Source of the DNA: Bifidobacterium breve
GTDB lineage: Bacteria > Actinomycetota > Acidimicrobiia > Acidimicrobiales > Ilumatobacteraceae
Length of the DNA: 64,000 nt
Direction: 5' to 3'
Assembly (NCBI GenBank): GCA_945862545.1
Contig: CAMAYS010000001.1
Location: forward strand, 34,394-98,393
Below, piece after piece: positions 15,730-32,015 of the stretch; position 1 is the first letter of the stretch, and each line of letters begins with the position of its first letter. The position numbers and the translations under genes are program-made. The notes beneath the pieces are model-generated. The model was not told where the DNA came from, searched no databases, and saw only the letters and a program-made list of their open reading frames with translations.

Positions 15730-15738
15730 AGTAAAAGA

Positions 15739-18496: not shown

Positions 18497-18507
18497 GGCT
18501 GATGCCC

Positions 18508-19365
18508 CTAACGATTAATGGATTTATTCACGCGCAGTTCAGCATTGAGTCCTTCAAATACTGGTGCACGTTTTTCAATGAAGCTAAAAACACCCTCGGC
18601 GAAATCGGGTCGTGTCCCGGCTTCAGACATCAGGACGAGTGAGCGGAGCCGTGATTCTTCTGCGGTGAGATCCCAATCAGAGAGAAGTTGATGTTTGATA
18701 TCTGCCATCGCGCAAGGTGAGCAATTAATGGCTATCTCACGGGCGTAACTCAGCGCCGCAGAAAGCAGTTCATCGGGTGTGACTAAACGATTGATCAAAC
18801 CTATGGAGAGAGCTTCTGTGGCATCTATGACTCGTGCTGACAACAACAGATCAGCTGCATGACCTGATCCGATGAGTCGCGGCAGAATCCAAGAGAGCCC
18901 GTTTTCAGCAGGCAGACCGCGCCGACTGAATGCGGTGGTGAATTTAGCTACATGCGAAGCGAAGCGAATATCAGTACTGACTAATTGTACAAAGCCAATT
19001 CCGGCACATGCCCCATTGACTGCGGCGATAACCGGCTTGGGAATGAGTCGCGCAAGTGTCATCGGCCACCGACGCGGGTATTGCCCAACTGGCTCACCTT
19101 TAGCGCGAGATTCAAGTGTCGAGATATCCACCCCTGGACAAAAGGACTTGCCGACACCAGTAACCACGATGACCTTGACGTTGGGATCGTTGGCGGCGGC
19201 GATGAGGGTGCCAAAGTATGCATCTTCGATTTCTTGGCACCATCCATTATTACGTTCGGGGCGATTCCATGAAACCAAGAGGACCCCATGTTCATCGAGT
19301 TCACGAAGGACCGAGGTTGATTCTGGGTATACAGCAGGTGGGTTCCGTGGATCTGTGGATGTCAT
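18508..19365 (-). CDS. enoyl-CoA hydratase/isomerase family protein
   Basis: 285-aa ORF. FCPGVDIS and AAVNGACAGIGFVQLVSTDIRFAS. Confidence 0.85.
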   Translation of the reverse strand: MTSTDPRNPPAVYPESTSVLRELDEHGVLLVSWNRPERNNGWCQEIEDAYFGTLIAAANDPNVKVIVVTGVGKSFCPGVDISTLESRAKGEPVGQYPRRWPMTLARLIPKPVIAAVNGACAGIGFVQLVSTDIRFASHVAKFTTAFSRRGLPAENGLSWILPRLIGSGHAADLLLSARVIDATEALSIGLINRLVTPDELLSAALSYAREIAINCSPCAMADIKHQLLSDWDLTAEESRLRSLVLMSEAGTRPDFAEGVFSFIEKRAPVFEGLNAELRVNKSINR

Positions 19366-19387
19366 CGTGAACTATCGTGCCACAGTG

Positions 19388-20365
19388 ATGCGTTGTGTTG
19401 TTTGCCGAGAGCACGGTTCTGTGGATTATTTGGTCATTGAGGATCGCCCAGAACCTATGTGCGAACCCCATCAGGTGGTGGTTGACATCGCATACGCAGC
19501 GGTGAACTTCCCTGATGTCCTAATTATCGAGAACAAGTATCAGGTTTCAGTACCTGCGCCGTTCGTCCCAGGCAGTGAGTTCTCGGGCGTGGTGTCCCGT
19601 TTGGGTGACAGCGTGGAGAATATTCGTCTGGGAGACCATGTCTCGGGGGCAACGATGAACGGCGCATTTGCTGAGAAAATCGTCGTTGACGCGTCGACTC
19701 TACGGGTCCTTGACCCGTCCATCGCTCTTGACAAGGCGGCTGCATTTTGGGTCGCACACGCTACGGCTTATCATGCTCTACGTTCGGTCGCTGAGGTGCT
19801 CCCTGGGGAGAAGGTTCTGATCCTAGGGGCCGCTGGGGGAGTCGGCTTGGCGGCAGTAGAGATCGCTGCTCTGAGGGGAGCCGAAGTGATAGCAGCGGCA
19901 TCGAGTGATGACAAATTGACTGTCTGCATTCAACGCGGGGCACGACACACGGTGAATTATCTTGCTTCTGATTTACGTGATTCATTGCGCTTGATCTCGG
20001 CACATGGGGTTGATGTCGTTATTGATCCAGTTGGTGGCCCGTTGGCAGAGAAGGCATTGCGAACATTGCGTTGGAAGGGTCGCTTCGTAACGATTGGGTT
20101 TGCCTCGGGGGAGATTCCCCGGATTCCTTTAAATCTTGTGCTACTCAAGGGATGCGTGGTGAAGGGTTTTGAAATTCGAACATTTGCTGAACATGAACCA
20201 ACGTTGGCTGCGCGCGATGAAACTGAACTATTAAATCTTTTCCGTACTGAACAACTGAGTCCGCACATTTCATCGGTTTACGAGATCGACAAAGTTGCAG
20301 ATGCATTGCATGAAGTGACATCACGCCGTTCAATCGGCAAGGTGCTTCTTCGGCTCGGGGATTGA
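19388..20365 (+). CDS. NADPH:quinone oxidoreductase / zinc-type alcohol dehydrogenase-like (MDR) protein
   Basis: ORF track gives 18872..20365, but the first 172 codons are antisense to the crotonase gene. The in-frame ATG 19388 gives MRCVVCREHGSVDYLVIEDRPEP... with the Rossmann motif LGAAGGVGLAAVEIA. Confidence 0.85.
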   Translation: MRCVVCREHGSVDYLVIEDRPEPMCEPHQVVVDIAYAAVNFPDVLIIENKYQVSVPAPFVPGSEFSGVVSRLGDSVENIRLGDHVSGATMNGAFAEKIVVDASTLRVLDPSIALDKAAAFWVAHATAYHALRSVAEVLPGEKVLILGAAGGVGLAAVEIAALRGAEVIAAASSDDKLTVCIQRGARHTVNYLASDLRDSLRLISAHGVDVVIDPVGGPLAEKALRTLRWKGRFVTIGFASGEIPRIPLNLVLLKGCVVKGFEIRTFAEHEPTLAARDETELLNLFRTEQLSPHISSVYEIDKVADALHEVTSRRSIGKVLLRLGD

Positions 20366-20389
20366 ACGATTATCTCTGTCAAGTTAGTG

Positions 20390-20418
20390 GCGATGTGACT
20401 AACTTTTTGTCACATCGC
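20390..20418. terminator. 10-bp perfect stem-loop between convergent genes (GCGATGTGAC - 9 nt loop - GTCACATCGC)
   Basis: Read directly. The T-rich loop/tail reads TAACTTTTT on the plus strand. It overlaps the last codons of the minus-strand amidohydrolase gene and follows the quinone oxidoreductase stop (20365). Confidence 0.45.
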
Positions 20419-21685
20419 GGCTTGCTAGCGCTGCCAGTTCGCGCGCAGTGAAGGGTGTTCCCTTTGGACGACCCATACTACGAAGAGCAATATCAACATC
20501 TGCGCCTTCGGCTTTTAGTGCACCTACGGTGCACAGCTCGCGAGGACGAACCTTGAAGGGGTCAAAGGAATATAAGCGCATCGCATTGAGATGAGTCATT
20601 TTATTTATTTCATCGTCGGGTATACCCTCCAGCGAATGGGACAATAAATCTGCCGAATGTGGCCAGGTTGAGTCCGAGTGTGGGTAATCACATTCCCAAG
20701 TGATGCGATCAATTCCGACTGTGTGACGAAGTGCCAAACCTGCTCGGTCGTCAATAAAACAAGTACTGATGTTGCGGTGGAAAATATCAGTTGGAGTTAA
20801 ACCACCAAAGTCAGCGCCGGTCCAGGCTCGGTGATGGCTGTAGGTGTAGTCCATGCGTTCGAGAGCGTAAGGAACCCAACCTATGCCACCTTCGGACAAG
20901 GCAATAATCATTTTCGGAAACTTGCGGAAAATCGGAGTCCACATCAAGTCGTTGAGCGCTAGGAAGGAGTTCATCGGTGTAATGGCAATACTCACATCGG
21001 CTGGGGCATCAAGTGATGTCACTGTCATCGATGATGAAGAACCGATATGCATGCATACGACGGTGTTGGTCTCCTCGCATGCTTGAAAGAATGGATCCCA
21101 GTGAGTTCCGTGAAGGCCAGGTAGCCCCAATTTTTCCGGATTTTCTGAAAAGGTCACTGCATGGCAGCCCTTGCTGGCGGCGCGACGAATTTCCTTCGCC
21201 ATCAGTTGTGGGTCCCAAAGTGGCATGATCGTCATCGGGATAAAGCGGTCTGGATAAGAGCCAGCCCATTCATCAATATGCCAGTCGTTATATGCGCGAA
21301 CACAGTCAAGCGCTAAATCTTTATCTTGTGCTCGTAAAAAAAGTTGTCCACAGAAGTGAATGAAGGTTGGGAAGTTTAAGGATCCAAGTACACCATTGGC
21401 ATTCATGTCACGAACGCGTTCATGTACGTCCCAACATCCTTTGCGCATCTGGTCAAATCGAAGTGGATTCAGACCGTACTCATCGGGTGGACAACCGGCA
21501 ACTGCGTTGAGACCCATGTTCTGGGCTCGCTGGCCCTCAAATAACCAGTACTGACTGCCACTCTCGTCTTCCATGATTTTTGGTGCTTGGTCGCGATATT
21601 TAGCGGAGATATGAGCATCAAACATGGTCGGTGGTTCGATGACGTGATCATCAACGCTAACCAAGATCAAATCGTTAGTTTCCAT
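20399..21685 (-). CDS. amidohydrolase_2 family protein (paralog of 47629..48885)
   Basis: 428-aa ORF. VSVDDHVIEPP, HERVRDMNANGVLGSLNFPT, CMHIGSS, ECDYPHSDSTWPHS. Confidence 0.85.
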   Translation of the reverse strand: METNDLILVSVDDHVIEPPTMFDAHISAKYRDQAPKIMEDESGSQYWLFEGQRAQNMGLNAVAGCPPDEYGLNPLRFDQMRKGCWDVHERVRDMNANGVLGSLNFPTFIHFCGQLFLRAQDKDLALDCVRAYNDWHIDEWAGSYPDRFIPMTIMPLWDPQLMAKEIRRAASKGCHAVTFSENPEKLGLPGLHGTHWDPFFQACEETNTVVCMHIGSSSSMTVTSLDAPADVSIAITPMNSFLALNDLMWTPIFRKFPKMIIALSEGGIGWVPYALERMDYTYSHHRAWTGADFGGLTPTDIFHRNISTCFIDDRAGLALRHTVGIDRITWECDYPHSDSTWPHSADLLSHSLEGIPDDEINKMTHLNAMRLYSFDPFKVRPRELCTVGALKAEGADVDIALRSMGRPKGTPFTARELAALASRDVTKS

Positions 21686-21707
21686 ACTTTCTCCTTTGTA
21701 AGTAATC

Positions 21708-21721
21708 TGACATTACTGTCA
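21708..21721. promoter_or_regulatory. motif 1 dyad TGACATTACTGTCA
   Basis: Perfect TGACA-N4-TGTCA, 22 nt upstream of ATG 21685 (amidohydrolase). Confidence 0.45.
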
Positions 21722-21725
21722 AGTA

Positions 21726-22466
21726 TCACTCGTGTCCAATAATAAAGTCAGAAACTAATCGGGGGAATGCCAGCCGGTCAGCCTTGAAAATGTCGTGGGA
21801 GGAGTTTGGAATCTGCGCCACGACGGCATTTGGAAGATGCTCCTGTAAGGTACGGACGTAGACCTCATCAACGAGGCAGCCCTCAAGGCTTCCGATTGCT
21901 AACAACAGCGGGATTTTGGTGTTGACGACATCTTCAAGTAGGTCTCTATCCACCGAACTGGCGAATACTTGTTTGATGACGGTGGGGTCTATGCGGTCTT
22001 TCATCGCCTTGCCTCGAAAGCGAGTGGCCATGAATGTCGCAGAGTAATCCTCTGCGATGGCATGCTCTCTAGCCCAATAGTCGCCAATTGAAAGTGAGAT
22101 AACTCGCTCTGGTATTTCGAGCATCATGTCCAGTGCCCAGGTCGTACCGCGGGAAAATGTCATGAGGTGAAACTGTTCAAAGCCGGCTTGAGCGACAGCT
22201 GCCTTCAGGTCTTTGGCATGGTCAACCGAGCGATATCCACTGGTTGGGATTTCGCTACGGCCTCGACCACGTACCTCAACAACGATCATTTGTCTGGGTG
22301 CAAAAAATTGCAGCATCTCAACATATTCATCGGCGAAGTCGGTCATGCCGGGAGAAAAGACAATCGGTAAACCAGTCGGTGATTCGGGAGCATTGTCAAG
22401 GAATCGAATCCGTATACCGCTGTCTTTGGTCCAGCGTTCAACGATTTCACTGTGCCGAGGTGCCAT
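21726..22466 (-). CDS. alpha/beta-fold hydrolase
   Basis: 246-aa ORF. Nucleophile-elbow-like LMTFSRGTTW and late SSHDIF (His). Start overlaps the AKR stop by 1 nt (TAATG). Confidence 0.7.
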   Translation of the reverse strand: MAPRHSEIVERWTKDSGIRIRFLDNAPESPTGLPIVFSPGMTDFADEYVEMLQFFAPRQMIVVEVRGRGRSEIPTSGYRSVDHAKDLKAAVAQAGFEQFHLMTFSRGTTWALDMMLEIPERVISLSIGDYWAREHAIAEDYSATFMATRFRGKAMKDRIDPTVIKQVFASSVDRDLLEDVVNTKIPLLLAIGSLEGCLVDEVYVRTLQEHLPNAVVAQIPNSSHDIFKADRLAFPRLVSDFIIGHE

Positions 22467-23371
22467 TAGGCTCTGGCTGCTTCGTCAATACGGGCAATGT
22501 CAGAGTCATCCAGAGTCAGCCAAGCAGCGTTGATGTTGTGCTCGGCATGGATCACATTGGAGGTGCCAGGAATCGGCAGAACATTCTTTGAACGCTGTAA
22601 GAGCCATTGAAGTGAGATCTGCTGAATGCTCATTCCACGGTTTTGGGCAATGTCAAGGAGAACGCGATTGACACCGCTAGCACCCACCAAGATTGGAGCC
22701 CATGGAATGAAGGCGATACCTTCTGCTCGACAAGTTTCGACGACGGTATCACTTGAGCGATCGCCAGCGTTGTAACGATTCTGTACCGAGACAACTCGAC
22801 ACAGTGTTTGGGCGAAACGCAATTGCTCAAGAGTCACATTAGAAATTCCGATGTGTTGAATCTTGCCCTTATCTTGTAATTCAACGAAAGCTCCGATTGT
22901 CTCGTCGTAAGGGATGCTTGGGTCAGGCGTATGTATTTGGTAGAGATCAATTTTGTCCACGCGTAGGCGCTGAAGACTGCGGTCACATTCGATCTTGATC
23001 TGATCAGGATGTCCTGATGGTGGCAATGTGATGTGACCTCGAAGTATTTTTGATGGATGGAACCCTGCCTTGGTGGTGATCACAAGGTCACTCGGATATG
23101 GGTATAAGGCTTCGGCAATGATTTCTTCAGATTCTCCGTAACCGTAGATATTCGCAGTATCAATGAAGTTGGTGCCACGATCAATGACGGTACGTATCAG
23201 CCGATGGGCTTCTGTGCGGTCGCGCGCACCTTCGCCATTACGGGCGCTTGAGATTCGCATCGCACCGAATCCAAGTCTGCGTACTGGGAGATTGCCACCA
23301 ATAATAAATTCACTCACCGGTGATGAGGCAAGATGTTGCGATTTACTTGACTTCGGAGCATCCATCACCAT
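22466..23371 (-). CDS. aldo/keto reductase
   Basis: 301-aa ORF. GTNFIDTANIYGYGESEEIIAEAL and the IPGTSNVIHAEHN C-terminal pattern. Confidence 0.85.
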   Translation of the reverse strand: MVMDAPKSSKSQHLASSPVSEFIIGGNLPVRRLGFGAMRISSARNGEGARDRTEAHRLIRTVIDRGTNFIDTANIYGYGESEEIIAEALYPYPSDLVITTKAGFHPSKILRGHITLPPSGHPDQIKIECDRSLQRLRVDKIDLYQIHTPDPSIPYDETIGAFVELQDKGKIQHIGISNVTLEQLRFAQTLCRVVSVQNRYNAGDRSSDTVVETCRAEGIAFIPWAPILVGASGVNRVLLDIAQNRGMSIQQISLQWLLQRSKNVLPIPGTSNVIHAEHNINAAWLTLDDSDIARIDEAARA

Positions 23372-24535
23372 TTAACCCTTTTCGCTACTCAAAATTGTAA
23401 TTGCTGAAACAGCTGTAGGTCCACCGACATTGTGTGCCAGACCGTAACGCGCACCATCTACTTGGTTCGTCGATTCGCCGCGCAACTGTTCAAATATTTC
23501 GACACATTGGGCAATGCCTGTTGCCCCCGGTGGATGCCCTTTTGATTTTAAACCACCACTCGGGTTGACTGGGATCCGACCGCCTACATAAGTAGCACCT
23601 GACTCAATCAGTTTGTCGGCGCCAAACTTTTCGCAGAAGCCCAAATCTTCATAGTTGATCAACTCAACTCCAGTGAAACAGTCGTGCACCTCGGCGACAT
23701 CAATATCGGCAGGTCCGATTCCAGCCATCGAATAGGCTTGTTTTGCAGCCTTAATTGTGGGTGGGAAGGAAGTCATATCGCGTTTATGCTGATGCATTAC
23801 TCGATCAAGCCCAAGGCCAGTACCGCGCACCCACACGGGGTTATCGGTGTACTTGTAGGCAAGTTCCTCGGCGACAAGGAGCACAGCAGCTGCTCCGTCA
23901 CTCTGTGGGGTGCAGTCAAATAGACCGAAAGGGTCAACGACCATTGGGGCATTTAAGACTTGTTCAATAGTGATCTCGTAGCGTAATTGAGCCTTGGGAT
24001 TGGTCACTCCATGCTTATGATTTTTAACTGCGACCATAGCCAAATGCTCGCGGGTTGCTGTGGGTGATTCGTATAGATAGCGCGCCACATGTAGAGCAAA
24101 ATTTGCGGGGGCAACGAGACCAAGTGGGAAATCCCAAGCCGCGTCGCGTGTCATCCCCATCCAATCCCAAAAAGTAGTACGCGTGGAGGTTTCGCGTACC
24201 TTGTCTGCGCCAACTACCAACACCACGTCATACATGCCGCTCGCAATAGCCATTGTTCCGTGACGTACCGCATCATTGCCAGTAGCACAAGCATTTTCCA
24301 AGCGTGAAACGGGGATGTCGAGCAGCCCGCATGTATCGGCCAAAATTCCAGTGGCGAATCCGTCAGTTGTGACAAGCTCACCGAACCAGGCAGCTTGGAT
24401 ATCGGCACGATCAAAGCCTTTATTGACGCTGGCGACGGCTTCACTTACTGCCATTGGCACCATATCTTTAATACCGAGATGAAAGAGTTCGCCGAACTCG
24501 GTCATGCCAGCACCGATCATCGCCACGCGTTTCAT
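23372..24535 (-). CDS. SCP-x / nonspecific lipid-transfer-type thiolase (Cys nucleophile retained)
   Basis: 387-aa ORF. LENACATGNDA (nucleophilic Cys), EVHDCFT, NPSGGLKSKGHPPGATG. ATGA overlap with the upstream gene. Confidence 0.85.
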   Translation of the reverse strand: MKRVAMIGAGMTEFGELFHLGIKDMVPMAVSEAVASVNKGFDRADIQAAWFGELVTTDGFATGILADTCGLLDIPVSRLENACATGNDAVRHGTMAIASGMYDVVLVVGADKVRETSTRTTFWDWMGMTRDAAWDFPLGLVAPANFALHVARYLYESPTATREHLAMVAVKNHKHGVTNPKAQLRYEITIEQVLNAPMVVDPFGLFDCTPQSDGAAAVLLVAEELAYKYTDNPVWVRGTGLGLDRVMHQHKRDMTSFPPTIKAAKQAYSMAGIGPADIDVAEVHDCFTGVELINYEDLGFCEKFGADKLIESGATYVGGRIPVNPSGGLKSKGHPPGATGIAQCVEIFEQLRGESTNQVDGARYGLAHNVGGPTAVSAITILSSEKG

Positions 24536-25740
24536 AGAGCCTCCGTTAGATGAGTTGCTGATTCGGGGATAAAGCCGTATCCATAGTCGGGGACACCCAT
24601 GCGCACGGCTACGAGTCGCAAGGCGAGACGTCCCTTATCGCCGATTTTGACGGAACCCGGCGGGGCTGCGGTAAGGCGGACCATCGTGCGAACTCCGGAG
24701 TCCCCAAGATCAACAATGACTACGGTGTAAGGGCCGATTAATCCAGGTACTGGAACGCGAATGGTAGCCATGCTGTAAATTTCGCCATCTCGCGGTAAAG
24801 CTGTATTGGTGGTGGGCTCTTCAGATCCACAGTTGATACACCTTCGGCGTCGCGGATACGAGAGTGATCCACACGCTGAACATGCAGCAGCCTCGAGTCG
24901 TAGTTTGAATTCGAAGGCCCTGTCGTAGGCGGACAAGGAAATGGAGACTGAAGATCCTGGTGCTTGTTTTGAGTTGGGTAAAGGCTGGGCTGACGGCTCA
25001 TCGCGTGTTATCCGAACTGCACCCGCTTGGAGCTCGGCCAAACTGAGTGTGGCCTGTTCGGCAGCCAGCACCGTTCCTGTCGTGTTATCTGAGATGAGCG
25101 CCGCCAGTAAAAAACCAACTGAGGCTGCTCCAGTGGTCGGAAGTGTGATTGTGGATCGACCACATATTGCTGCGCTATCGCGAGCATCAAGTCCAGCGGT
25201 GGCCACAGGGATCGGGGATCCAATTGACTCAAGTGAGACACCGAGTCCGCTGACGCGTAATAGTCGGGCGTCGGAATAGTCGCTGGTGTTACCAAATGAG
25301 TCGCGGGTTGTCACCGGCATACTGCGGGTGATTCTTTCTAATGCCACGAGGGCGGCGCCCTCTGTTCCGACAAAAATAGCGCTAGCGGCTGCCGGATCCC
25401 CAGGCTCGGAGCCAATGATGAGGGTTCCTGCCTCGGCTGAAGTGATGGAGTCAAGAACAACAGGGGCTCCTCCGACCACTTCACGAATCATGGTGCTATT
25501 ACTTAATCCCAGTCCAGCCAAAAGTGCAGCACTATTTCCACCTTCAAGAAGGGGAAAATTGCGAGTCACAAAAATCACGCAGCGAACCTGTGTCGGGTGA
25601 ACGTTGTCTAGTGCCGCCAAACCGGCAGCTACTGCCATAGTCACAGCGTCTTCGTCGTGGCCACTGAGGCGACGTGTTGAGTTGCCCCAAGTTGGTAGGT
25701 AGGTTCCGATCGCTGTGATGATGGCCACGGGCTGGCTCAC
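24532..25740 (-). CDS. fusion: degenerate HMG-CoA-synthase/KAS-III-like domain + C-terminal DUF35 (Zn-ribbon + OB-fold)
   Basis: 402-aa ORF with a GTG start in a GTGA overlap with the VOC stop. N-terminal AIGTYLP...HDEDAVTMAVAAGLAAL resembles archaeal-type HMGCS, but the nucleophile position reads VVGGAP (no Cys). The C-terminus has CSACGSLSYPRRRRCINCGS followed by an OB-like segment. Confidence 0.7.
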   Translation of the reverse strand: MSQPVAIITAIGTYLPTWGNSTRRLSGHDEDAVTMAVAAGLAALDNVHPTQVRCVIFVTRNFPLLEGGNSAALLAGLGLSNSTMIREVVGGAPVVLDSITSAEAGTLIIGSEPGDPAAASAIFVGTEGAALVALERITRSMPVTTRDSFGNTSDYSDARLLRVSGLGVSLESIGSPIPVATAGLDARDSAAICGRSTITLPTTGAASVGFLLAALISDNTTGTVLAAEQATLSLAELQAGAVRITRDEPSAQPLPNSKQAPGSSVSISLSAYDRAFEFKLRLEAAACSACGSLSYPRRRRCINCGSEEPTTNTALPRDGEIYSMATIRVPVPGLIGPYTVVIVDLGDSGVRTMVRLTAAPPGSVKIGDKGRLALRLVAVRMGVPDYGYGFIPESATHLTEAL

Positions 25741-26663
25741 CGGAAGGCCGAACGCGGGCGTTGGACAAATTCGTAAGCAATGCTGTCTGGATCGCTAATG
25801 AAAGTGATCCACATATCTGGTACGGGCGTACCGCTTAACTCAACTTGCATGGGAGGGCGATCAAAAATGGCACCGTTTGAACACATTTCCTCATAAGTGG
25901 ATCGGGTGTCATCGACACCCAGTGCGACGCGAAAGATTCCTCGGTGGAAAGGTTCTTTGTAGTGCTTTCCATTTGCAGTCGGTTGTATCCATTGAACGAG
26001 TCGCAACTCAAAGGGCTCATCAGGGAGGCGAAGCCGAACGAACTCTCCCTCAACTGGTGTGGTGATGCCAAGGAATGCCCCGTCATTAATTGCACCCCGT
26101 GAAAGCACGACGAAGCCGAGATTCTCATAGAAAGGAAGAGAAGTCTCGATGTCAGTGATCGTGAGTCGAAGATGGTGCATTTGAGTGTCAGTAATCGGCA
26201 GTTTCTCATCCTCAACAATTTCAAGCGTCACATCATTGGGATCGATGACGGAAGCAACCTTGGTATCAAAGACTGAAGCAGAACGAGAAAGAACACGACA
26301 ACCGGCTGAGATCAGCGAGTTAAGAGCGGCCTCGATGTTTGGGACTGAAAGACCGAGTGATTTAATGCCGATACGAAAGGGGTCGGTTGATGGTTGACCG
26401 ACAGGGGCCGGGTCAAACCAACCTTGAATCTCAATTGCTGGACTGGTGCGTGGGCCTCGCTGGTCATAAACAAATGAACCTACTGATCGGACATCGCGGT
26501 CAATACCAAGAATCGCTCCGGAACTGTATTGGTCTGTGGTGCGCATGGTGTTCTTCATCTTGAAATTGTTGACAAAGAAGTCGGTCACAATACTGGCATC
26601 ATCGCAGCAGTAGCAAACATGAAGAAAACGTCGGGCGGGCAGTTCGGCCACAGAATCAGTCAA
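25737..26663 (-). CDS. two-module VOC (glyoxalase/bleomycin-resistance/extradiol-dioxygenase) superfamily protein
   Basis: 308-aa ORF. Two repeats of the beta-alpha-beta3 pattern (FLHVCYCCDD..., MHHLRLTITDIETSLPFYENLGF). TTG start preceded by GGAGGTG. Confidence 0.65.
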   Translation of the reverse strand: MTDSVAELPARRFLHVCYCCDDASIVTDFFVNNFKMKNTMRTTDQYSSGAILGIDRDVRSVGSFVYDQRGPRTSPAIEIQGWFDPAPVGQPSTDPFRIGIKSLGLSVPNIEAALNSLISAGCRVLSRSASVFDTKVASVIDPNDVTLEIVEDEKLPITDTQMHHLRLTITDIETSLPFYENLGFVVLSRGAINDGAFLGITTPVEGEFVRLRLPDEPFELRLVQWIQPTANGKHYKEPFHRGIFRVALGVDDTRSTYEEMCSNGAIFDRPPMQVELSGTPVPDMWITFISDPDSIAYEFVQRPRSAFR

Positions 26664-26704
26664 CAGACACCTCCAGAGTTTGGGTAATTTTGCAAAGTAT
26701 AACT

Positions 26705-26718
26705 TGACGAATAAGTCA
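26705..26718. promoter_or_regulatory. motif 1 dyad TGACGAATAAGTCA
   Basis: Perfect TGAC-N6-GTCA, 41 nt upstream of the TTG start 26663 of the VOC gene. Confidence 0.4.
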
Positions 26719-26880
26719 ACTCTGAAGTCCGGGGTTGATCTTGGTGTTCCACCCTTGGTGCTTCAGGTATTTTGCGTTCTTTGGAGGAAGAATTGGGTTT
26801 ATCCCATGAGGTAGCGGACACTGGTATTTGAGGAACCTTGGGTATTCCCTACTTGATACTCGGCGGTATAGAGTGCAAGT

Positions 26881-26894
26881 TGACGATTGTGTCA
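26881..26894. promoter_or_regulatory. motif 1 dyad TGACGATTGTGTCA
   Basis: Perfect TGAC-N6-GTCA, 39 nt upstream of ATG 26934 (crotonase/Rieske operon). Identical 14-mer to the one at 35220. Confidence 0.45.
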
Positions 26895-26933
26895 GGTGGA
26901 ACCCCCATCGGCACCCGAGAGATGGAGATCTGA

Positions 26934-27707
26934 ATGGCCTATGCACCGACGCCACATGTGATTGTTGAACGCGAGGGTCCTTTAGCGATCATCACCTTAA
27001 ACAACCCCGACATGATGAACGCCTTCCTGGACGATATGCACGAAGCGATGCGGGAGATCTGGTGGGACCTCGCGGAAGATGATTCGGTGCGCGCTGTGGT
27101 GCTTACCGGCGCGGGTAAAGCTTTCTCCGCCGGTGGAGATATCCCCAGTTTCATTAAAAGTTATGAGGATCCCGATTATCGTCGTCGCTCTCTACGTGGC
27201 GCAAAGCGCTTGATGGAAGCTCAAGCAGAATTTCCCAAGCCAGTAGTGGCAGCAGTTAACGGAGCCGCAGTTGGACTTGGATGCAACGTGGCTTTGTGCT
27301 GTGACATCGTATTTATGGCCGACACTGCTTTTCTAGCTGATACGCACGTCAGTATCGGCCTGGTCTGTGGTGACGGTGGTGCAGTCTTTTGGCCGCTACT
27401 TATGGGTCTTTTGAAGTGTAAGGAATATTTGTTGACTGGTGACCGCATCCCTGCTGCAAAAGCGCTCGAACTCGGACTAGCCAATCGTGTCGTTCCGAGA
27501 GATGAGTTGATGGATCAAGCAAAGGCGTTTGCGATGAAGTTGGCTGCCCAGCCCCATCAGGCAATTCAAGAAACTAAGCGCGCTCTCAACCTCCATTTGC
27601 AAGAAATGATTTTGCGGGTAGCCCCTTTTGCCCTCTCGGCCGAAGCTGAATCATTCGCAACTGCAGATATAAAAAAGACCATTGACGGTTTTAAGAATAA
27701 AAAGTAA
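26934..27707 (+). CDS. enoyl-CoA hydratase/isomerase family protein
   Basis: 257-aa ORF. AFSAGGDI and AAVNGAAVGLGCNVALCCDIVFMAD. Confidence 0.85.
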   Translation: MAYAPTPHVIVEREGPLAIITLNNPDMMNAFLDDMHEAMREIWWDLAEDDSVRAVVLTGAGKAFSAGGDIPSFIKSYEDPDYRRRSLRGAKRLMEAQAEFPKPVVAAVNGAAVGLGCNVALCCDIVFMADTAFLADTHVSIGLVCGDGGAVFWPLLMGLLKCKEYLLTGDRIPAAKALELGLANRVVPRDELMDQAKAFAMKLAAQPHQAIQETKRALNLHLQEMILRVAPFALSAEAESFATADIKKTIDGFKNKK

Positions 27708-27795
27708 AGAAATCTTGACTTAGTCGGTGGACTTTGTGATGCGCAATCGCGCGCTATTCCAACAAATTTTTGCAAATCAGAAGGTGGAAAACGAG

Positions 27796-28788
27796 ATGAA
27801 GGTTCCGTTTACTTGGAGACCAACGGGCTGGTTCATGGTGGCATGGAGCGCGGAAATTGCTCCTGGAGGTGTGAAGGCCCTGCAATATTTTGCTGGCCAT
27901 CAGGTGGCTTACCGGACGTTGGAAGGGGAGTTGCATATCCTTGACGCCCACTGTCCTCATCTTGGTGCTCATCTTGGTCATGGCGGCAAGGTGGTCGATG
28001 ACTGTATCCAGTGCCCATATCACGGATGGGGTTACGGACCTGATGGTGTGAATCGGTTCATTCCTTATGAAGATTCTCCAAATCTCTCGCACCGCTTACG
28101 CAAGTGGCATGTTGACGAGCGACATGAGTGTGTTTTTATGTGGCATGACCCAAAAGGCGGTGCACCGCGCTGGGAATTACCAGATATATGGAACGTTGTT
28201 GAGGGCACCGAGTCGGCGCCGGGGAAGAATTACCGGGCTTACCCTGAACTTTCAATTAAATATGAACGCGAGTTAGTTCATCCTCAAATCACTTTGGAGA
28301 ATGCTCCAGACAGTGTGCACTTCAAGTTCGTACATGGGGCAACGGTGACTCCGGTGTTGATGGAGTGGAAAATTGAAGGACCTTTATATATTGCCACGTC
28401 GGGTTGGCCGGTTATGGCGAAAGATGGAGAGCAGCGTCTGGCGTTGATTAACACATCAATATCTTGCGGAGTTGGTGGGGCAATGGCATTTATGCGCGGG
28501 GCTCATCCATATCGTCTTATCTTTTTCACAACACCGATTGATGATGAGTCATCGGCAATGTTCTATTCAATCTGGTGGCCCAAAATGGATGGTGATGAAA
28601 GTGAGATCCCACCGCAGAGCGTTCGTGACACTGTTCAGCGGGACTTTCTAACGACCCTTGAAGAAGATCTTGGGATCTGGAGGAATCAGGTGTATGTCGA
28701 GACCCCAGCGTTCGCTAAGCAGGATGCCAAACCATATGGTGCGATGCGCAAGTGGGCGAAACAGTTCTATGAAGTCGGTGAGAAGTGA
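27796..28788 (+). CDS. Rieske [2Fe-2S] non-heme-iron oxygenase, KshA-like terminal oxygenase component
   Basis: ORF track 27727..28788. I prefer ATG 27796 (AAGGTGGA upstream). Rieske motif CPHLGAHLGHGG...CPYHGW. Mononuclear-iron motif ENAPDSVHFKFVH (E-x3-D-x2-H-x4-H). Confidence 0.85.
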   Translation: MKVPFTWRPTGWFMVAWSAEIAPGGVKALQYFAGHQVAYRTLEGELHILDAHCPHLGAHLGHGGKVVDDCIQCPYHGWGYGPDGVNRFIPYEDSPNLSHRLRKWHVDERHECVFMWHDPKGGAPRWELPDIWNVVEGTESAPGKNYRAYPELSIKYERELVHPQITLENAPDSVHFKFVHGATVTPVLMEWKIEGPLYIATSGWPVMAKDGEQRLALINTSISCGVGGAMAFMRGAHPYRLIFFTTPIDDESSAMFYSIWWPKMDGDESEIPPQSVRDTVQRDFLTTLEEDLGIWRNQVYVETPAFAKQDAKPYGAMRKWAKQFYEVGEK

Positions 28789-29615
28789 CTCAATTAGAGG
28801 TCGACGACAGGTTTGAAGATGTACATCGATCGGGACTATTTGTTCACGAGATCAATCTTGGAGCTCCTGGGGCAAAAGTGATCCTTGTTCATGGTGCTCC
28901 AGATCGAAGCAAAAACTTCGCAAGAGTTTTAGATGAACTCGGTCTTGCATCTCCGGTCACTATTTATGATCGTCGTGGCTATGGGCGCTCAATGGATGCA
29001 GGTGCTTTGGGTGGAGGTTTCACCCAGCACGCTGAGGATTTGATTGACATTATTGATCAGCAACCAGCCATCGTCATTGGCCAAAGTGCTGGAGGAGCGA
29101 TTGCATTGCAAGCGTCAATTATGGCACCCGATAAATTTTTAGCGCTCGGGGTGTGGGAGCCGCCGATGGTGGCCCATGAATGGTGGGGGGGCCGTTCTGA
29201 ATGGCACCGCACTCAAGCCTGGGTGGCCTACAGCGACATGGAGCGCGTGGGTGAAGATATCAACCGTTCAATCATCGGCAATGAACGATGGGATTCACTG
29301 ACGGCAGAGACGAAGGATCTACTTCGTAGCGAGGGTCGAGCCTTTTGGGCAGATATGGAATCTCAAACGATCCCCTTGTTCAACCCAGAGCAAGTAACGG
29401 TTCCAGTGATCGTGGGCAAAGGGACTGTGCACAGTTTTGAGCACCTCGGTGTCGCTCATCGGCGATTGTCGGAACGATTGTCGGCTCCGTTATGGGTTGG
29501 CGAAGGAGCCTCGCACGCGGCGCATGTAACGCATGCTCCAATATGGGCTGACTTTACGCGTGAAGTCATTCATCTCGCAAGGTCGCAGAGTGGGGTGCAA
29601 GTTCGGTGGCGCTAG
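28785..29615 (+). CDS. alpha/beta-fold hydrolase
   Basis: 276-aa ORF. GTGA overlap with the Rieske gene. HGAPD oxyanion region and GQSAGG nucleophile elbow. Confidence 0.8.
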   Translation: MTQLEVDDRFEDVHRSGLFVHEINLGAPGAKVILVHGAPDRSKNFARVLDELGLASPVTIYDRRGYGRSMDAGALGGGFTQHAEDLIDIIDQQPAIVIGQSAGGAIALQASIMAPDKFLALGVWEPPMVAHEWWGGRSEWHRTQAWVAYSDMERVGEDINRSIIGNERWDSLTAETKDLLRSEGRAFWADMESQTIPLFNPEQVTVPVIVGKGTVHSFEHLGVAHRRLSERLSAPLWVGEGASHAAHVTHAPIWADFTREVIHLARSQSGVQVRWR

Positions 29616-29724
29616 GGGATGATGGACGCAGATTCTTTGAAAAGACACTTGTGGTAGGTGAAAGATGCGTGAGATGCTCTTACTACGCGAAGAGCTTTCA
29701 TGCTGGCGCTATGGGGGTACAAGA

Positions 29725-31998
29725 ATGTTAGAGCAAGCAATGTTGAGCGGTCTTCGCGTGCTAGATCTCGGTGGAAGCAAAGCTTCGGCGATTGCCACCA
29801 TGGTGTTGGCTGATGCCGGTGCCGATGTGGTGATGGTTGAACCAAACTCGGGTGACTCGGTGCGTGGTGAGCATGGCTTTATTACCTGGGGTCGCAACAA
29901 GCGCAGCATCAGAATCGATGTCATGTCTGCATCAGGTCGAGATGAACTGGACGAACTCTTGTCTCGAGTGGACATTTTGGTTCATTCATTAAATCCGACA
30001 ATCGCAAAAAGTTTGCGACTTGACGATGCCTCGCTCAGTGCACATCATCCCCATCTGATCGTCTCATCAATATTGGGTTGGCCCATCAATCATGATCAAG
30101 CCGATGCTCCTATCGACGATCACATCGTTTTGGCACGTCTCGGTGTACTTGACGAACAACTCGGTCGCCGTGAGGGCCCAATTTATGTTCGCTTTCCACT
30201 CGGTACGTGGTCAGCGGCGTGGTTAGCAGTGATTGGCATAATGGCGCGCGTCGTTTCACGCGATCGCGGTGGCGTAGTCGGGCCAGCGCATACAAGTTTA
30301 GCGCAGGGAGCTCTCGTGCCGATGATGATGCATTGGTCACGAGCTGAGACTCCTTCTCAAATGCTTGCAGTGGGCATGCCAAAAGATCGGATGAGAGCTT
30401 CACTCTTTGAATGTGCTGATGGTCGTTGGGTACATGTCATGCCCCCTGCCCCCGACAACACTCCGTTAATGCAAGAAGTATTTGCTGAGATGGGTCCAGC
30501 ACTTATGGCTGAAGCGAATGAACGACATAACGCCGGTGGTGTCCCTGGGTGGGTGAATTGGGGTGCGCTGATTGAAGCCTTTAAAAGACGCGACTCAAAT
30601 AGTTGGTTAGAGAATATGTGGGGTAACGATATTCCGGCACAGCCAGCCGTTGCTCTTGGAGAAATTCTTGACGATGAACAGGCGCTAGATAATGATTATG
30701 TCCTTGACGTCGCCGTACAAGGTTTGGGCCGTGTGCGAACTGCTGGTCTACCAATTACTCTTGATCCAGCGGCATCGGTACGTACTATGCCACCTGAACT
30801 CGGGGAACATGACGCCGAGCTGCGTGCGACTTGGCTAGCAGCGCCAGTCAAAAAAATTGATATGTCAAGAGCACGACGTTTGCGGCATCCGTTAGAGGGT
30901 TTGAAGGTCGTTGACTTCGGAAATTTCCTTGCTGGTCCGTTGGGTCCGATGTTGTTAGCTGACCTTGGAGCGACTGTGGTCAAGGTTGAGGCGCACACTG
31001 GTGATCCAATGCGGTTTGCGGATTGGCCATTCGCAGGATGCCAGCGTGGTAAGAGGGCGGTCGCCCTCGACATTAAGTCGCCGGACGCGAAACCGGCACT
31101 TGAGGCAATTTTGAAATGGGCCGATGTCGTGCATCACAATCTTCGACTACCTGCAGCTAGACGATTGGGGTTGGACGGCGATGCGGTTCGAGCAGTTAAT
31201 CCACAGGTAATTTTTTGTCATGTAAGTTCGTATGGACCCAAAGGTAAACGGGCTGACTGGCCTGGATATGACCAGCTTTTCCAGTCAAGTTGTGGTTGGG
31301 AAGTGGCAGGTGCTGGTCAGGACAATCCTCCGATGTGGCATCGCTTTGGCTTTATGGATCACCTATGTGCGATGGCATCAGCGGCTGGAACCTTGATGGC
31401 ATTACACCATCAACATCAGACTGGTCGCGCAACAAACGTTGCAACATCGTTGTTAGGTACGGGGGTGCTGACAAATAGTGAGACCTATGTGACTTCCGAC
31501 GGGACTCTCGCCTCGGTTCCGATTTTGGATTCCGAGCAAATGATGATTAGTCCGGGTCGACGTTTGCTGAAGATGGCTGATGGCTGGTTAGCTATGTCAG
31601 CGACGTGCGACGAACAGGTGGAGGCATTCTGTCAAATGACTGGCACGAGTGATGCCGATGCAGCAGCAGCAGAAATGAATACTCTGACAGCAGCTGATGG
31701 GCTCAGTCGTCTGCAAGCACTTGGTATCCCTGCAGAATCGGTTCGGCGCGGACAACAAGGACCCTTCTTCGATGACCCATCCCACCTAGCGGCTGGATTG
31801 GTGGCATCTTATGATCATCGTGATTGGGGACGACTCGAACAGCCAGGAGCTATGTGGTGTCTCGGTGAGCAATCAACTCGTCTAGAACTGGCACCTCCAG
31901 TTCTTGGTGAACACACGGTTGAGGTCTTACTGGAAGTTGGTCTAGGCCAAAATGAAGTTGACGCGTTAATTGCCTCTGGGGTCGCTGTGGCTCGTTGA
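29725..31998 (+). CDS. tandem-fused family III (CaiB/BaiF) CoA-transferase, two complete domains
   Basis: ORF track 29665..31998; likely start ATG 29725 or 29740. Domain 1 begins LSGLRVLDLGGSKASAIATMVLADAGADVVMVEP. Domain 2 begins LEGLKVVDFGNFLAGPLGPMLLADLGATVVKVEA. Confidence 0.8.
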   Translation: MLEQAMLSGLRVLDLGGSKASAIATMVLADAGADVVMVEPNSGDSVRGEHGFITWGRNKRSIRIDVMSASGRDELDELLSRVDILVHSLNPTIAKSLRLDDASLSAHHPHLIVSSILGWPINHDQADAPIDDHIVLARLGVLDEQLGRREGPIYVRFPLGTWSAAWLAVIGIMARVVSRDRGGVVGPAHTSLAQGALVPMMMHWSRAETPSQMLAVGMPKDRMRASLFECADGRWVHVMPPAPDNTPLMQEVFAEMGPALMAEANERHNAGGVPGWVNWGALIEAFKRRDSNSWLENMWGNDIPAQPAVALGEILDDEQALDNDYVLDVAVQGLGRVRTAGLPITLDPAASVRTMPPELGEHDAELRATWLAAPVKKIDMSRARRLRHPLEGLKVVDFGNFLAGPLGPMLLADLGATVVKVEAHTGDPMRFADWPFAGCQRGKRAVALDIKSPDAKPALEAILKWADVVHHNLRLPAARRLGLDGDAVRAVNPQVIFCHVSSYGPKGKRADWPGYDQLFQSSCGWEVAGAGQDNPPMWHRFGFMDHLCAMASAAGTLMALHHQHQTGRATNVATSLLGTGVLTNSETYVTSDGTLASVPILDSEQMMISPGRRLLKMADGWLAMSATCDEQVEAFCQMTGTSDADAAAAEMNTLTAADGLSRLQALGIPAESVRRGQQGPFFDDPSHLAAGLVASYDHRDWGRLEQPGAMWCLGEQSTRLELAPPVLGEHTVEVLLEVGLGQNEVDALIASGVAVAR

Positions 31999-32015
31999 GA
32001 GGGATGAGTTGGAAA

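What the first reader, a model, noticed from the sequence alone, without database searches (positions are those of the whole stretch)
23372..25740. Degenerate HMG-CoA-synthase-like domain fused to DUF35 and translationally coupled to an SCP-x thiolase: a PhlACB / archaeal thiolase-HMGCS-DUF35-like complex with a pseudo-enzyme subunit
ORF 24532..25740 starts like an archaeal-type HMGCS/KAS-III condensing enzyme (AIGTYLP, HDEDAVTMAVAAGLAAL). Where the nucleophilic Cys should be, it reads EVVGGAPVV, and the domain is short (about 270 aa). Its C-terminus is a DUF35 module (CSACGSLSYPRRRRCINCGS plus an OB-like segment). An ATGA overlap couples it to a thiolase that keeps its catalytic residues (NACATG, HDCF, GHP). 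The same trio (condensing-enzyme-like subunit, SCP-x thiolase, DUF35 scaffold) forms the archaeal acetoacetyl-CoA-channelling complex. It also forms the Pseudomonas PhlACB C-acyltransferase, where the thiolase-like subunit carries the active Cys. A covalent HMGCS-like::DUF35 fusion with an apparently dead condensing site, embedded in a catabolic operon with a VOC protein, an AKR and a hydrolase, is not an arrangement I know to be characterised. It could be a C-C bond-cleaving or acyl-transfer machine for a bulky (aromatic/alicyclic beta-keto) substrate.
Basis: partly seen in the sequence, partly recalled or inferred. Interest (0 to 1): 0.65.

Follow-up and report, generated by a model that had tools for sequence, protein, structure and literature searches.

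The report
Thiolase with fused dead HMGS-DUF35 partner
A freshwater actinobacterium encodes an intact thiolase coupled to a partner protein made of a catalytically dead HMG-CoA-synthase-like domain fused to a DUF35 scaffold; this two-gene design was first characterised in Pseudomonas in 2026, and here it appears in a shrunken form that is widespread in Actinomycetota and has an unknown substrate.

Summary
ORF 24532..25740(-) encodes 402 aa. Residues 1-~250 form a compact thiolase-superfamily fold (AF2 pLDDT 89.6; Foldseek top hits are FabH, HMGS and the archaeal complex HMGS, E~1e-10). The C-terminus is a DUF35 zinc ribbon plus OB fold. Among 160 family members, no N-domain column conserves Cys or His, so the HMGS E-C-H-N tetrad is gone. 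An ATGA overlap couples it to an SCP2/archaeal-type thiolase with Cys83, H284-D-C-F and G333-H-P (best PDB match 6ESQ_A, 2.8e-67).

The pair is adjacent in 78 of 80 genomic loci across Acidimicrobiia, Mycobacterium, Nocardia and Rhodococcus. Nat Commun 2026 (PMC12960953) characterised a P. fluorescens ACAT plus fused, tetrad-less HMGS-DUF35. That complex cleaves acetoacetyl-CoA and makes no HMG-CoA.

The window family aligns over its full length with 470-483-aa fused proteins of Proteobacteria and Haloarchaea (hhalign 97-99.5%). It is about 80 aa shorter and invisible to Pfam PF08541.

Most likely it is a degradative heteromeric thiolase in which the pseudo-HMGS::DUF35 chain is a scaffold and pocket-forming subunit. 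The substrate is unknown; the context suggests bulky or branched acyl-CoA. Verdict: new member of a known kind, moderate interest.

The parts
24532..25740 (-). Fused pseudo-HMGS::DUF35 protein, 402 aa, GTG start
   Evidence: ORF and translation. Same gene call in other assemblies. More than 313 homologues of about 400 aa. AF2 model pLDDT 89.6, pTM 0.90.
24955..25740 (-). N-terminal minimal thiolase-superfamily (HMGS/KAS-III-like) domain, aa 1-262, without a catalytic tetrad
   Evidence: Foldseek top hits are FabH, HMGS, OleA and 6et9_I/6esq_J, E 1e-10 to 1e-8. A profile against the PDB hits MucA, PhlA and HMGS over positions 14-122. No Pfam hit. No column has Cys above 44% or His above 13% in 160 sequences. 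The nucleophile-equivalent columns 88/89 are Q/V/R and L/I/V.
24817..24900 (-). DUF35 rubredoxin-like zinc ribbon (aa 281-308; C287, C290, C301, C304)
   Evidence: Pfam zf-ChsH2, 7e-07. The four Cys are 97% conserved.
24565..24801 (-). DUF35 OB-fold (aa 314-392)
   Evidence: Pfam OB_ChsH2_C, 6.5e-10. PDB hits: 6ESQ_E DUF35 at 1.1e-13 with the family profile, ChsH2 DUF35 6OK1_B, BbsA 7PXP_A and PhlB.
24532..24535 (-). ATGA stop/start overlap between the fused gene and the thiolase gene; GGAGG lies at 24540-24544
   Evidence: Read directly from the sequence.
23372..24535 (-). SCP2/archaeal-type thiolase, 387 aa. Cys83 is at 24287-24289, His284 of HDCF at 23684-23686, His334 of GHP at 23534-23536.
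   Evidence: Pfam Thiolase_C_1 (2e-42) and Thiolase_N. Best PDB match is 6ESQ_A, 2.8e-67. C83, H284, D285 and G333-H334-P335 are invariant in 78 orthologues.
25737..26663 (-). VOC (glyoxalase/dioxygenase superfamily) protein, coupled upstream by a GTGA overlap. It is linked to the pair only in Acidimicrobiia-type loci.
   Evidence: Pfam Glyoxalase, 3.5e-10. Present upstream in L001-L003, L006 and L008 only. No PDB relative at E<=1e-3.
22466..23371 (-). Aldo/keto reductase, directly downstream in the same operon
   Evidence: Pfam Aldo_ket_red, 2.4e-64. Found downstream of the pair in L001 and L003.
21726..22466 (-). Alpha/beta hydrolase in the same operon
   Evidence: Pfam Abhydrolase_1, 1.8e-09. 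Found in L001 and L003.
20399..21685 (-). Amidohydrolase_2 family protein, last gene of the co-directional block
   Evidence: Pfam PF04909, 9.3e-33.

Best explanation
The two overlapping genes most likely encode a heteromeric, degradative 3-oxoacyl-CoA thiolase.

The 387-aa SCP2/archaeal-type subunit would carry all the chemistry. Cys83 is the acyl-accepting nucleophile. The H284-D-C286-F loop supplies the catalytic His, and in this sub-clade also the acid/base Cys. G333-H334-P335 forms the oxyanion hole.

The 402-aa partner would be a non-catalytic subunit. Its DUF35 zinc ribbon and OB fold clamp the thiolase, as in the archaeal, PhlACB, BbsAB and Ltp2-ChsH2 assemblies. Its shrunken HMGS-like domain has lost Glu, Cys, His and Asn. 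It would supply the second wall of the shared CoA/acyl-binding chamber and keep the thiolase soluble and correctly shaped.

What is shown: the domain identities, the loss of the tetrad, the retention of the thiolase residues, the translational coupling, and strict co-occurrence of the pair across Actinomycetota.

What is inferred: physical complex formation, the thiolytic direction, and the substrate. The substrate is probably a bulky or branched (terpenoid- or steroid-like, alicyclic) 3-oxoacyl-CoA.
For: Domain identities:
- Thiolase-superfamily fold of the N-domain.
- DUF35.
- Thiolase closest to the archaeal complex thiolase 6ESQ_A at 2.8e-67, ahead of BbsB (9e-49), PhlC (2e-40) and Ltp2 (9e-38).

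The N-domain is catalytically dead by canonical chemistry:
- No conserved Cys or His in the N-domain among 160 members.
- E. faecalis HMGS Cys111 aligns to V89.
- The bridging haloarchaeal fused protein has E82->T, C114->T, H238->Y and N270->D relative to 6ESQ_I.

The thiolase is intact: C83, H284, D285 and GHP are invariant in 78 orthologues.

The two genes belong together:
- The thiolase lies immediately downstream in 78/80 loci. It is 63-90% identical, against 44-63% for the fused partner, as expected for a catalytic subunit and a scaffold subunit.
- ATGA overlap.

Precedent: P. fluorescens ACAT plus fused, tetrad-less HMGS-DUF35 cleaves acetoacetyl-CoA, makes neither HMG-CoA nor acetoacetyl-CoA, and depends on the HDxF His (PMC12960953).

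Homology to that class: hhalign of the family against PF08541-positive fused proteins of Paraburkholderia (96.9%) and Novosphingobium (98.3%), and against the haloarchaeal fused protein (99.45%, E 4e-22).

Catabolic context:
- In the window: acyl-CoA ligases, ACADs, ECHs, CoA-transferases and a KshA-like oxygenase.
- In Mycobacteriales: P450/Fdx/SDR/ALDH/CoA-transferase upstream and a YrbE/Mce transporter downstream.
Against:
- The N-domain is more conserved than a pure spacer needs to be. It has invariant D29-E30-D31, Y155, D157, R159 and R162, so a ligand-binding or even catalytic role is not excluded.
- In most Mycobacteriales orthologues the Cys of HDCF is Phe or Tyr. The acid/base chemistry may therefore differ between sub-clades.
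- The sequence of the assayed P. fluorescens protein was not available, so homology to it is shown only through other proteobacterial fused proteins.
- The precedent assay used acetoacetyl-CoA only. No physiological substrate is known for any member.
Confidence: 0.65

Rival explanations
1. PhlACB/MucABC-like C-acyltransferase. The Cys of the thiolase-like subunit is acylated and passes the acyl group to a carbon nucleophile of an aromatic or enolic acceptor (Friedel-Crafts-type), with no CoA thiolysis.
For: The assembly has the same three-module ancestry. Weak profile hits of the N-domain go first to MucA (9vbo_A, 0.008) and PhlA. PhlB and PhlC are among the PDB hits.
Against: The window thiolase keeps HDCF, invariant H284-D285. 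According to PMC12960953, loss of HDxF is what distinguishes PhlC/MucB from true thiolases. No PKS or NRPS genes are nearby. PhlC is a much weaker match than 6ESQ_A (2e-40 against 2.8e-67).
Confidence: 0.07
2. The N-domain is not a pseudo-enzyme. It has gained a new active site built from the invariant Asp, Arg and Tyr residues (D29-E30-D31, Y155, D157, R159, R162). It would catalyse a step next to thiolysis, such as hydration, retro-aldol cleavage, decarboxylation or isomerisation of the acyl-CoA, channelled through the shared CoA site.
For: The N-domain has strong, family-specific conservation: motifs RSLPVxTRD and DYxDPRLLRERG, and 28 invariant N-domain columns in 39 sequences. The archaeal parent complex is a channelling device (PMC12960953).
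Against: Several of these motifs are inherited HMGS-family structural motifs. DEDxxTMA is shared with HMGS and PhlA. I also recall that DYxDPR resembles the HMGS YDFWRP loop; this is from memory and was not tested. The P. fluorescens complex showed only thiolase activity. The N-domain evolves faster than both DUF35 and the thiolase (47% against 60% against 63-90% identity).
Confidence: 0.12
3. Biosynthetic Claisen condensation. The thiolase runs in the condensing direction, forming acetoacetyl-CoA or a longer 3-oxoacyl-CoA, as in the archaeal mevalonate complex.
For: The closest solved thiolase is the archaeal biosynthetic one. SCP2-type thiolases are reversible; this is established thiolase enzymology.
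Against: The exergonic HMGS step that pulls the reaction forward in archaea is absent, because the tetrad is lost. The P. fluorescens analogue made no acetoacetyl-CoA from acetyl-CoA. The neighbours are catabolic and no mevalonate genes are present.
Confidence: 0.08
4. Ltp2/Sal-type retro-aldolase acting on a 3-hydroxyacyl-CoA, with DUF35 as the staple.
For: DUF35 plus an SCP2-type thiolase-like protein is the Ltp2-ChsH2 design. 6OK1 chains are among the hits. In Mycobacteriales orthologues the HDxF x position is Tyr or Phe.
Against: Ltp2 lacks the nucleophilic Cys, whereas Cys83 and His284 are invariant here. DUF35 is fused here to an HMGS-like domain, not to a MaoC hydratase domain. The window has a separate Ltp2-like candidate at 49789..50943 with no Cys and with YDAF.
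Confidence: 0.05

Closest known systems
P. fluorescens PfACAT/HMGS-DUF35 complex (Nat Commun 2026;17:2196, PMC12960953)
   Same: It has a single polypeptide with an HMGS-like domain lacking the E-C-H-N tetrad, fused to DUF35. Its partner thiolase keeps Cys, HDxF and GHx, and there is no PKS/NRPS context. The window family aligns over its full length with PF08541-positive fused proteins of other Proteobacteria (hhalign 96.9-98.3%).
   Different: The window protein is about 80 aa shorter (402 aa against about 480), mostly in the C-terminal half of the thiolase fold. It is not detected by PF08541, the probe used to define that class. It forms its own Actinomycetota clade, with only 297 clusters at 50% identity. 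The P. fluorescens sequence itself could not be compared. Activity here is untested.
[quoted passage not shown]
   Same: The thiolase is the best solved-structure match (2.8e-67), with the same Cys, HDCF and GHx. DUF35 is the best match for the C-terminus (1.1e-13). The HMGS chain is among the top fold matches.
   Different: In archaea the HMGS is active and there are three separate chains serving the mevalonate pathway. Here the HMGS-like part is dead and trimmed, it is fused to DUF35, and the context is catabolic.
PhlACB (PpATase) and MucABC (SmaATase) C-acyltransferases (PDB 5M3K/5MG5, 9VBO/9VBT)
   Same: They combine a dead HMGS-like subunit, a Cys-bearing thiolase-like subunit and DUF35. 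MucA and PhlA are the first sequence-profile hits of the N-domain.
   Different: PhlC and MucB lack HDxF and transfer acetyl groups to carbon acceptors. They have three separate chains and a secondary-metabolite context. The window thiolase keeps HDCF.
BbsAB benzoylsuccinyl-CoA thiolase (PDB 7PXP)
   Same: It pairs a DUF35 protein with an SCP2-type thiolase carrying HDxF, and performs degradative thiolysis of a bulky 3-oxoacyl-CoA. NCBIfam and PDB hits to BbsA and BbsB were found.
   Different: BbsA is a stand-alone DUF35 of about 145 aa with no HMGS-like domain. The hits are far below the equivalog cut-offs (41 against 250 bits; 196 against 750 bits).
Haloarchaeal plasmid-borne thiolase + 470-aa 'HMG-CoA synthase'/'zinc ribbon domain-containing protein' pairs (e.g. 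Haloarcula sp. JP-L23 QIO24974/QIO24975)
   Same: This is the closest full-length relative found outside Actinomycetota (hhalign 99.45%, E 4e-22, 31% identity over aligned columns). The tetrad is also lost. It is also paired with an overlapping SCP2-type thiolase gene in catabolic surroundings.
   Different: The gene order is reversed, with the thiolase first. It has a full-size HMGS-like domain of about 340 aa. As far as I could find, it is uncharacterised.

Membership tests
Fused inactive HMGS-like::DUF35 + active SCP2-type thiolase (PfACAT/HMGS-DUF35 class, PMC12960953) | One polypeptide with an N-terminal HMGS/KAS-III-type thiolase-fold domain and a C-terminal DUF35 (zinc ribbon + OB fold) | tested here: met
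   Pfam DUF35 domains. AF2 model plus Foldseek.
Fused inactive HMGS-like::DUF35 + active SCP2-type thiolase (PfACAT/HMGS-DUF35 class, PMC12960953) | The HMGS E-C-H-N catalytic tetrad is absent | tested here: met
   No conserved Cys or His in the N-domain of 160 members. The Cys-equivalent column is L/I/V or Q/V/R. Relatives that bridge to HMGS show E->T, C->T, H->Y and N->D. Exact residue equivalences for Glu, His and Asn in the window protein are inferred, not structurally aligned.
Fused inactive HMGS-like::DUF35 + active SCP2-type thiolase (PfACAT/HMGS-DUF35 class, PMC12960953) | The adjacent thiolase retains the catalytic Cys, the HDxF motif and the GHx motif | tested here: met
   C83, H284-D-C-F and G333-H-P are present. 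C83, H284, D285 and G333-H334-P335 are invariant in 78 orthologues; the x position is variable.
Fused inactive HMGS-like::DUF35 + active SCP2-type thiolase (PfACAT/HMGS-DUF35 class, PMC12960953) | The HMGS-like domain is detected by Pfam PF08541, the probe used in the paper's genome mining | tested here: not met
   No PF08541 hit at E<=0.01. Proteobacterial fused relatives do hit it, and they are homologous to the window family by hhalign.
Fused inactive HMGS-like::DUF35 + active SCP2-type thiolase (PfACAT/HMGS-DUF35 class, PMC12960953) | Forms a complex and cleaves acetoacetyl-CoA thiolytically, with no HMG-CoA synthesis | not testable with these tools
   This needs biochemistry. The P. fluorescens sequence and the paper's supplements were not held.
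Archaeal thiolase/HMGCS/DUF35 mevalonate complex | Catalytically competent HMG-CoA synthase subunit | tested here: not met
   The tetrad is lost.
Archaeal thiolase/HMGCS/DUF35 mevalonate complex | Thiolase of the archaeal/SCP2 type with Cys, HDCF and GHx | tested here: met
   Match to 6ESQ_A at 2.8e-67 with the motifs aligned.
Archaeal thiolase/HMGCS/DUF35 mevalonate complex | Mevalonate-pathway context | tested here: not met
   Every neighbour identified across the 64-kb window belongs to acyl-CoA catabolism or transport.
PhlACB/MucABC C-acyltransferases | The thiolase-like subunit has lost HDxF while keeping Cys and GHx | tested here: not met
   HDCF is present and H284-D285 are invariant. 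The criterion comes from PMC12960953.
PhlACB/MucABC C-acyltransferases | Embedded in a PKS or NRPS-PKS biosynthetic cluster | tested here: not met
   No PKS or NRPS domains among the neighbours.
BbsAB-type DUF35 + SCP2 thiolase | Equivalog-level similarity to BbsA and BbsB | tested here: not met
   NCBIfam BbsA 41 bits against a cut-off of 250; BbsB 196 bits against a cut-off of 750.
Ltp2-ChsH2(DUF35) / Sal-Shy steroid aldolases | The thiolase-like subunit lacks the nucleophilic Cys, and DUF35 is fused to a MaoC hydratase | tested here: not met
   Cys83 is invariant. There is no MaoC domain.

The most novel reading that the evidence does not exclude
The Actinomycetota clade may be more than an 'evolutionary intermediate without a job'. 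It could be a dedicated thiolase for a specific bulky, branched or alicyclic (terpenoid- or sterol-derived) 3-oxoacyl-CoA, in which the minimised pseudo-HMGS domain forms the acyl pocket and so sets substrate specificity. In Mycobacteriales it would be the end-point of a conserved import and oxidation route made of an Mce transporter, a P450/ferredoxin, an SDR, an ALDH and a CoA-transferase. In freshwater Acidimicrobiia it would work with a VOC protein, an AKR and hydrolases.
Probability: 0.3. Interest if true: 0.55.

Novelty: new member of a known kind. Interest (0 to 1): 0.4.

Why it matters
The finding extends a recently recognised design to Actinomycetota: an active thiolase that depends on a dead HMG-CoA-synthase-like subunit fused to DUF35. 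In this phylum the design is common. At least 333 genomic loci were found, including Mycobacterium, Mycolicibacterium, Nocardia, Rhodococcus and Gordonia, plus abundant freshwater Acidimicrobiia.

These genes escape current domain-based mining. RefSeq annotates them only as 'OB-fold domain-containing protein' plus 'beta-ketoacyl synthase N-terminal-like domain-containing protein'.

The trimmed N-domain of about 250 aa marks out the minimal part of the HMGS fold that the complex still needs. The conserved link in Mycobacteriales to an Mce transporter and a P450/ALDH/CoA-transferase block offers a concrete way to find a physiological substrate. No member of the class, including the P. fluorescens example, has one yet.

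Tried and rejected
- **Pfam and NCBIfam on the N-domain.** These gave nothing usable; the only hit was HMGS PRK04262 at 19 bits.
- **N-domain-only profile against the PDB.** Hits were only marginal (MucA 0.008, HMGS 0.3-0.5). The link to HMGS therefore rests on the fold search and on bridging through haloarchaeal and proteobacterial fused proteins.
- **Position of the nucleophile.** Three alignments place the Cys-equivalent at slightly different residues: I85 or a gap, V88, or V89. I did not force one. None of the candidate columns holds Cys or Ser.
- **Exhaustive HMMER search with the N-domain profile.** It found only 297 clusters, all family members or fragments among the 150 listed, and no bridge to canonical HMGS.
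- **Sequence of the assayed P. fluorescens protein.** The paper's supplements are not held, and Vogeli et al. 2018 is not held.
- **Shared VOC and amidohydrolase neighbours between the window and Novosphingobium pLA3.** The similarity is at superfamily level only (VOC E 0.047; amidohydrolase 23% identity). I rejected it as evidence for a common pathway.
- **VOC protein against the PDB.** No hit.
- **Literature search for the Mce/P450/DUF35/thiolase cluster.** It returned only steroid Ltp2/ChsH2-type systems, which are a different family.
- **Metatranscriptome support.** Coverage is sparse: seven short contigs, and DNA carry-over is possible. I treat it as weak.


Full report
**1. Observation**

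The two ORFs exist as described. ORF 23372..24535(-) encodes a 387-aa thiolase with NACATG (Cys83), HDCF (284-287) and GHP (333-335). The genes overlap by ATGA at 24532-24535, with GGAGG just upstream. A GTGA overlap at 25737-25740 couples the preceding VOC gene. Gene callers on independent metagenome assemblies give the same 402-aa product and the same overlaps.

**2. Domain identities**

Pfam recognises only the C-terminus: zf-ChsH2 at residues 281-308 and OB_ChsH2_C at 314-371, which together are DUF35. It finds nothing in residues 1-270. NCBIfam gives an HMGS hit of 19 bits.

A family alignment of 39 sequences gave a confident AF2 model (pLDDT 89.6, pTM 0.90). It has two beta-alpha-beta-alpha-beta-alpha-beta-beta halves in residues 5-247. 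Foldseek against the PDB returns 412 hits at E<=1e-3. They are led by FabH/KAS-III, HMG-CoA synthases and OleA, and they include the HMGS chain of the archaeal thiolase/HMGS/DUF35 complex (6et9_I at 7.8e-10; 6esq_J with TMt 0.57, rmsd 4.0).

Family profiles hit MucA, PhlA and HMGS weakly but consistently over profile positions 14-123. The DUF35 part matches 6ESQ_E (1.1e-13), ChsH2-DUF35, BbsA and PhlB.

The thiolase is closest to the archaeal complex thiolase 6ESQ_A (2.8e-67). It ranks ahead of SCP2-thiolases, BbsB, PhlC and Ltp2.

**3. Is the condensing site dead?**

- In 160 full-length family members, no N-domain column has Cys above 44% or His above 13%. The four zinc-ribbon Cys are 97% conserved.
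- E. faecalis HMGS Cys111 (EACYGA) aligns with V89 of REVVGGAP, and Glu79 aligns with N61. Other alignments shift the Cys-equivalent to V88 or to a gap beside I85. No candidate column holds a nucleophile.
- A haloarchaeal fused relative bridges to genuine HMGS. It matches 6ESQ_I at 4.9e-17 and PhlA at 5.9e-17, and it shows E82->T, C114->T, H238->Y and N270->D.

The domain is not decaying, however. D29-E30-D31, Y155, D157, R159 and R162 are invariant or nearly so.

**4. Distribution and linkage**

The family has more than 313 members in the 90%-clustered protein set. They are nearly all about 400 aa, and sources name them only 'OB-fold protein'. The exhaustive profile search found only 297 clusters at 50% identity, so the clade is narrow.

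A scan of one genome per species found at least 333 loci. They fall in Acidimicrobiia, Mycobacterium/Mycolicibacterium, Nocardia, Rhodococcus, Gordonia, Williamsia, Amycolatopsis and Pseudonocardia.

In 78 of the 80 loci kept, the thiolase lies immediately downstream. It is 63-90% identical to the window thiolase, against 44-63% for the fused protein. Cys83, His284, Asp285 and GHP are invariant. The x of HDxF is Cys in the window sub-clade but Phe or Tyr in most Mycobacteriales.

Everything else varies. VOC, AKR and the hydrolase accompany the pair only in Acidimicrobiia-type loci. In about 60 of the 80 loci, mostly Mycobacteriales, the pair follows an ALDH and a family III CoA-transferase. 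It sits opposite a P450 (nearest PDB matches P450cin and CYP125), a ferredoxin and an SDR. In about 33 loci it precedes a YrbE/Mce transporter operon. On the M. branderi plasmid, RefSeq names the pair 'OB-fold domain-containing protein' and 'beta-ketoacyl synthase N-terminal-like domain-containing protein'.

**5. What is already known**

PMC12960953 (Nat Commun, Jan 2026) solved the MucABC acyltransferase. It mined 1,030 bacterial loci using PF08541, PF00108 and PF01796. It also expressed a P. fluorescens 'PfACAT/HMGS-DUF35' complex, which has the following properties:
- a fused HMGS-DUF35 chain lacking the E-C-H-N tetrad;
- a thiolase that keeps Cys, HDxF and GHx;
- no HMG-CoA or acetoacetyl-CoA formation;
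- thiolytic cleavage of acetoacetyl-CoA, abolished by H294Y.

The same paper states that the acyltransferases PhlC and MucB have lost HDxF.

The window family would have escaped that mining, because its N-domain has no PF08541 hit. It is nonetheless homologous over its full length to three groups of fused proteins:
- PF08541-positive fused proteins on a Paraburkholderia plasmid (483 aa; hhalign 96.9%);
- the equivalent on a Novosphingobium plasmid (481 aa; 98.3%), whose adjacent thiolase is 38% identical to the window thiolase and carries CATG, HDCF and GHP;
- 470-aa haloarchaeal fused proteins (99.45%, E 4e-22).

The window protein is about 80 aa shorter, with the loss mostly in the C-terminal half of the fold.

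**6. Mechanism**

The best-supported reading is a degradative heteromeric thiolase. The SCP2-type subunit does the chemistry. DUF35 staples the complex, and the pseudo-HMGS domain completes the CoA/acyl chamber. This matches what structures show for the archaeal, PhlACB and MucABC assemblies, as described in PMC12960953.

Complex formation, reaction direction and substrate are inferred. The surroundings point to a bulky or branched acyl-CoA. The 64-kb window is one large acyl-CoA catabolic island, and the Mycobacteriales orthologues sit in the Mce/P450 context described above.

The rivals are less likely but not excluded. They are a Friedel-Crafts acyltransferase, a neo-functional N-domain, biosynthetic condensation, and an Ltp2-like aldolase. 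The conserved polar residues of the N-domain are the main open point.

**7. Source organism and expression**

The sequence is near-identical in many lake and freshwater metagenomes. The exact protein occurs in 69 assembly blocks. Two lake metatranscriptomes contain short contigs that span both gene junctions (24322-24560 and 25595-25828). This is weak support for co-transcription.

**8. Verdict**

The feature is real and the structural interpretation was largely right, but the design is no longer new. It is a divergent, size-reduced Actinomycetota member of the fused pseudo-HMGS::DUF35 plus thiolase class. The physiological substrate is unknown, as it is for the whole class. Interest is moderate.

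Noticed in passing
window 49789..50943 (-) and 47054..47524 (+): There is a second SCP2-type thiolase-like gene (Thiolase_C_1, 3.8e-62). It lacks the nucleophilic Cys motif, has YDAF in place of HDxF and CHP in place of GHP, which makes it an Ltp2/Sal-type retro-aldolase candidate. A weak stand-alone DUF35-like ORF (E 2.9e-4 against the family DUF35 profile) lies 2.3 kb away.
   Followed up: partly
window 1..64000: The whole window is an acyl-CoA catabolic island. It holds at least 5 AMP-dependent ligases, at least 7 acyl-CoA dehydrogenase genes (including a fused double ACAD at 32016..34250), 7 enoyl-CoA hydratases, 5 amidohydrolase_2 genes, 4 luciferase-like monooxygenases, a KshA-like Rieske oxygenase (27727..28788) and a tandem-fused family III CoA-transferase (29665..31998). 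It also holds TetR and GntR/FCD regulators and a branched-chain-type ABC importer (56238..61283).
   Followed up: partly
loci L009-L080 (Mycobacteriales), e.g. L064 4262..18736: In Mycobacterium, Nocardia, Rhodococcus and Gordonia the pair sits in a conserved block. A P450 (nearest PDB matches P450cin and CYP125), a ferredoxin and an SDR lie on one strand. An ALDH, a CoA-transferase III, the fused protein and the thiolase lie on the other, often followed by YrbEAB and six Mce genes. I found no description of this block in the searched literature.
   Followed up: partly
thiolase orthologues in L001-L081, column of window residue 286: The Cys of the HDCF loop is the acid/base residue in SCP2-type thiolases (from my own knowledge of the trypanosomatid enzymes). 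It is Cys in only 19 of 78 orthologues, including the window, Acidimicrobiia and some Nocardia, Amycolatopsis and Pseudonocardia. It is Phe in 47 and Tyr in 12. This suggests two mechanistic sub-clades.
   Followed up: no
L083 2839..5429; L082 4464..5873; L089 4989..7629; L088 4001..5452: Fused tetrad-less HMGS-like::DUF35 proteins of 470-483 aa, paired with SCP2-type thiolases, are common on haloarchaeal megaplasmids (including Haloferax volcanii and H. mediterranei). They also occur on Sphingobium, Novosphingobium and Paraburkholderia plasmids. Annotations vary: 'HMG-CoA synthase', 'ACP synthase', 'zinc ribbon domain-containing protein', 'OB-fold domain-containing protein'.
   Followed up: partly
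window 23372..25740 in public runs: The locus is held at 88-100% of sampled words in 16 lake or freshwater metagenome runs from at least seven studies. The source is therefore a widespread freshwater planktonic actinobacterium, probably Acidimicrobiia, with about 51% GC.
   Followed up: partly
window 18872..20365 (+): The listed 497-aa ORF for a zinc-type alcohol dehydrogenase overlaps the ECH gene on the opposite strand (18508..19365). The Pfam domains start only at residue 199, so the true start is probably near 19400-19470.
   Followed up: no
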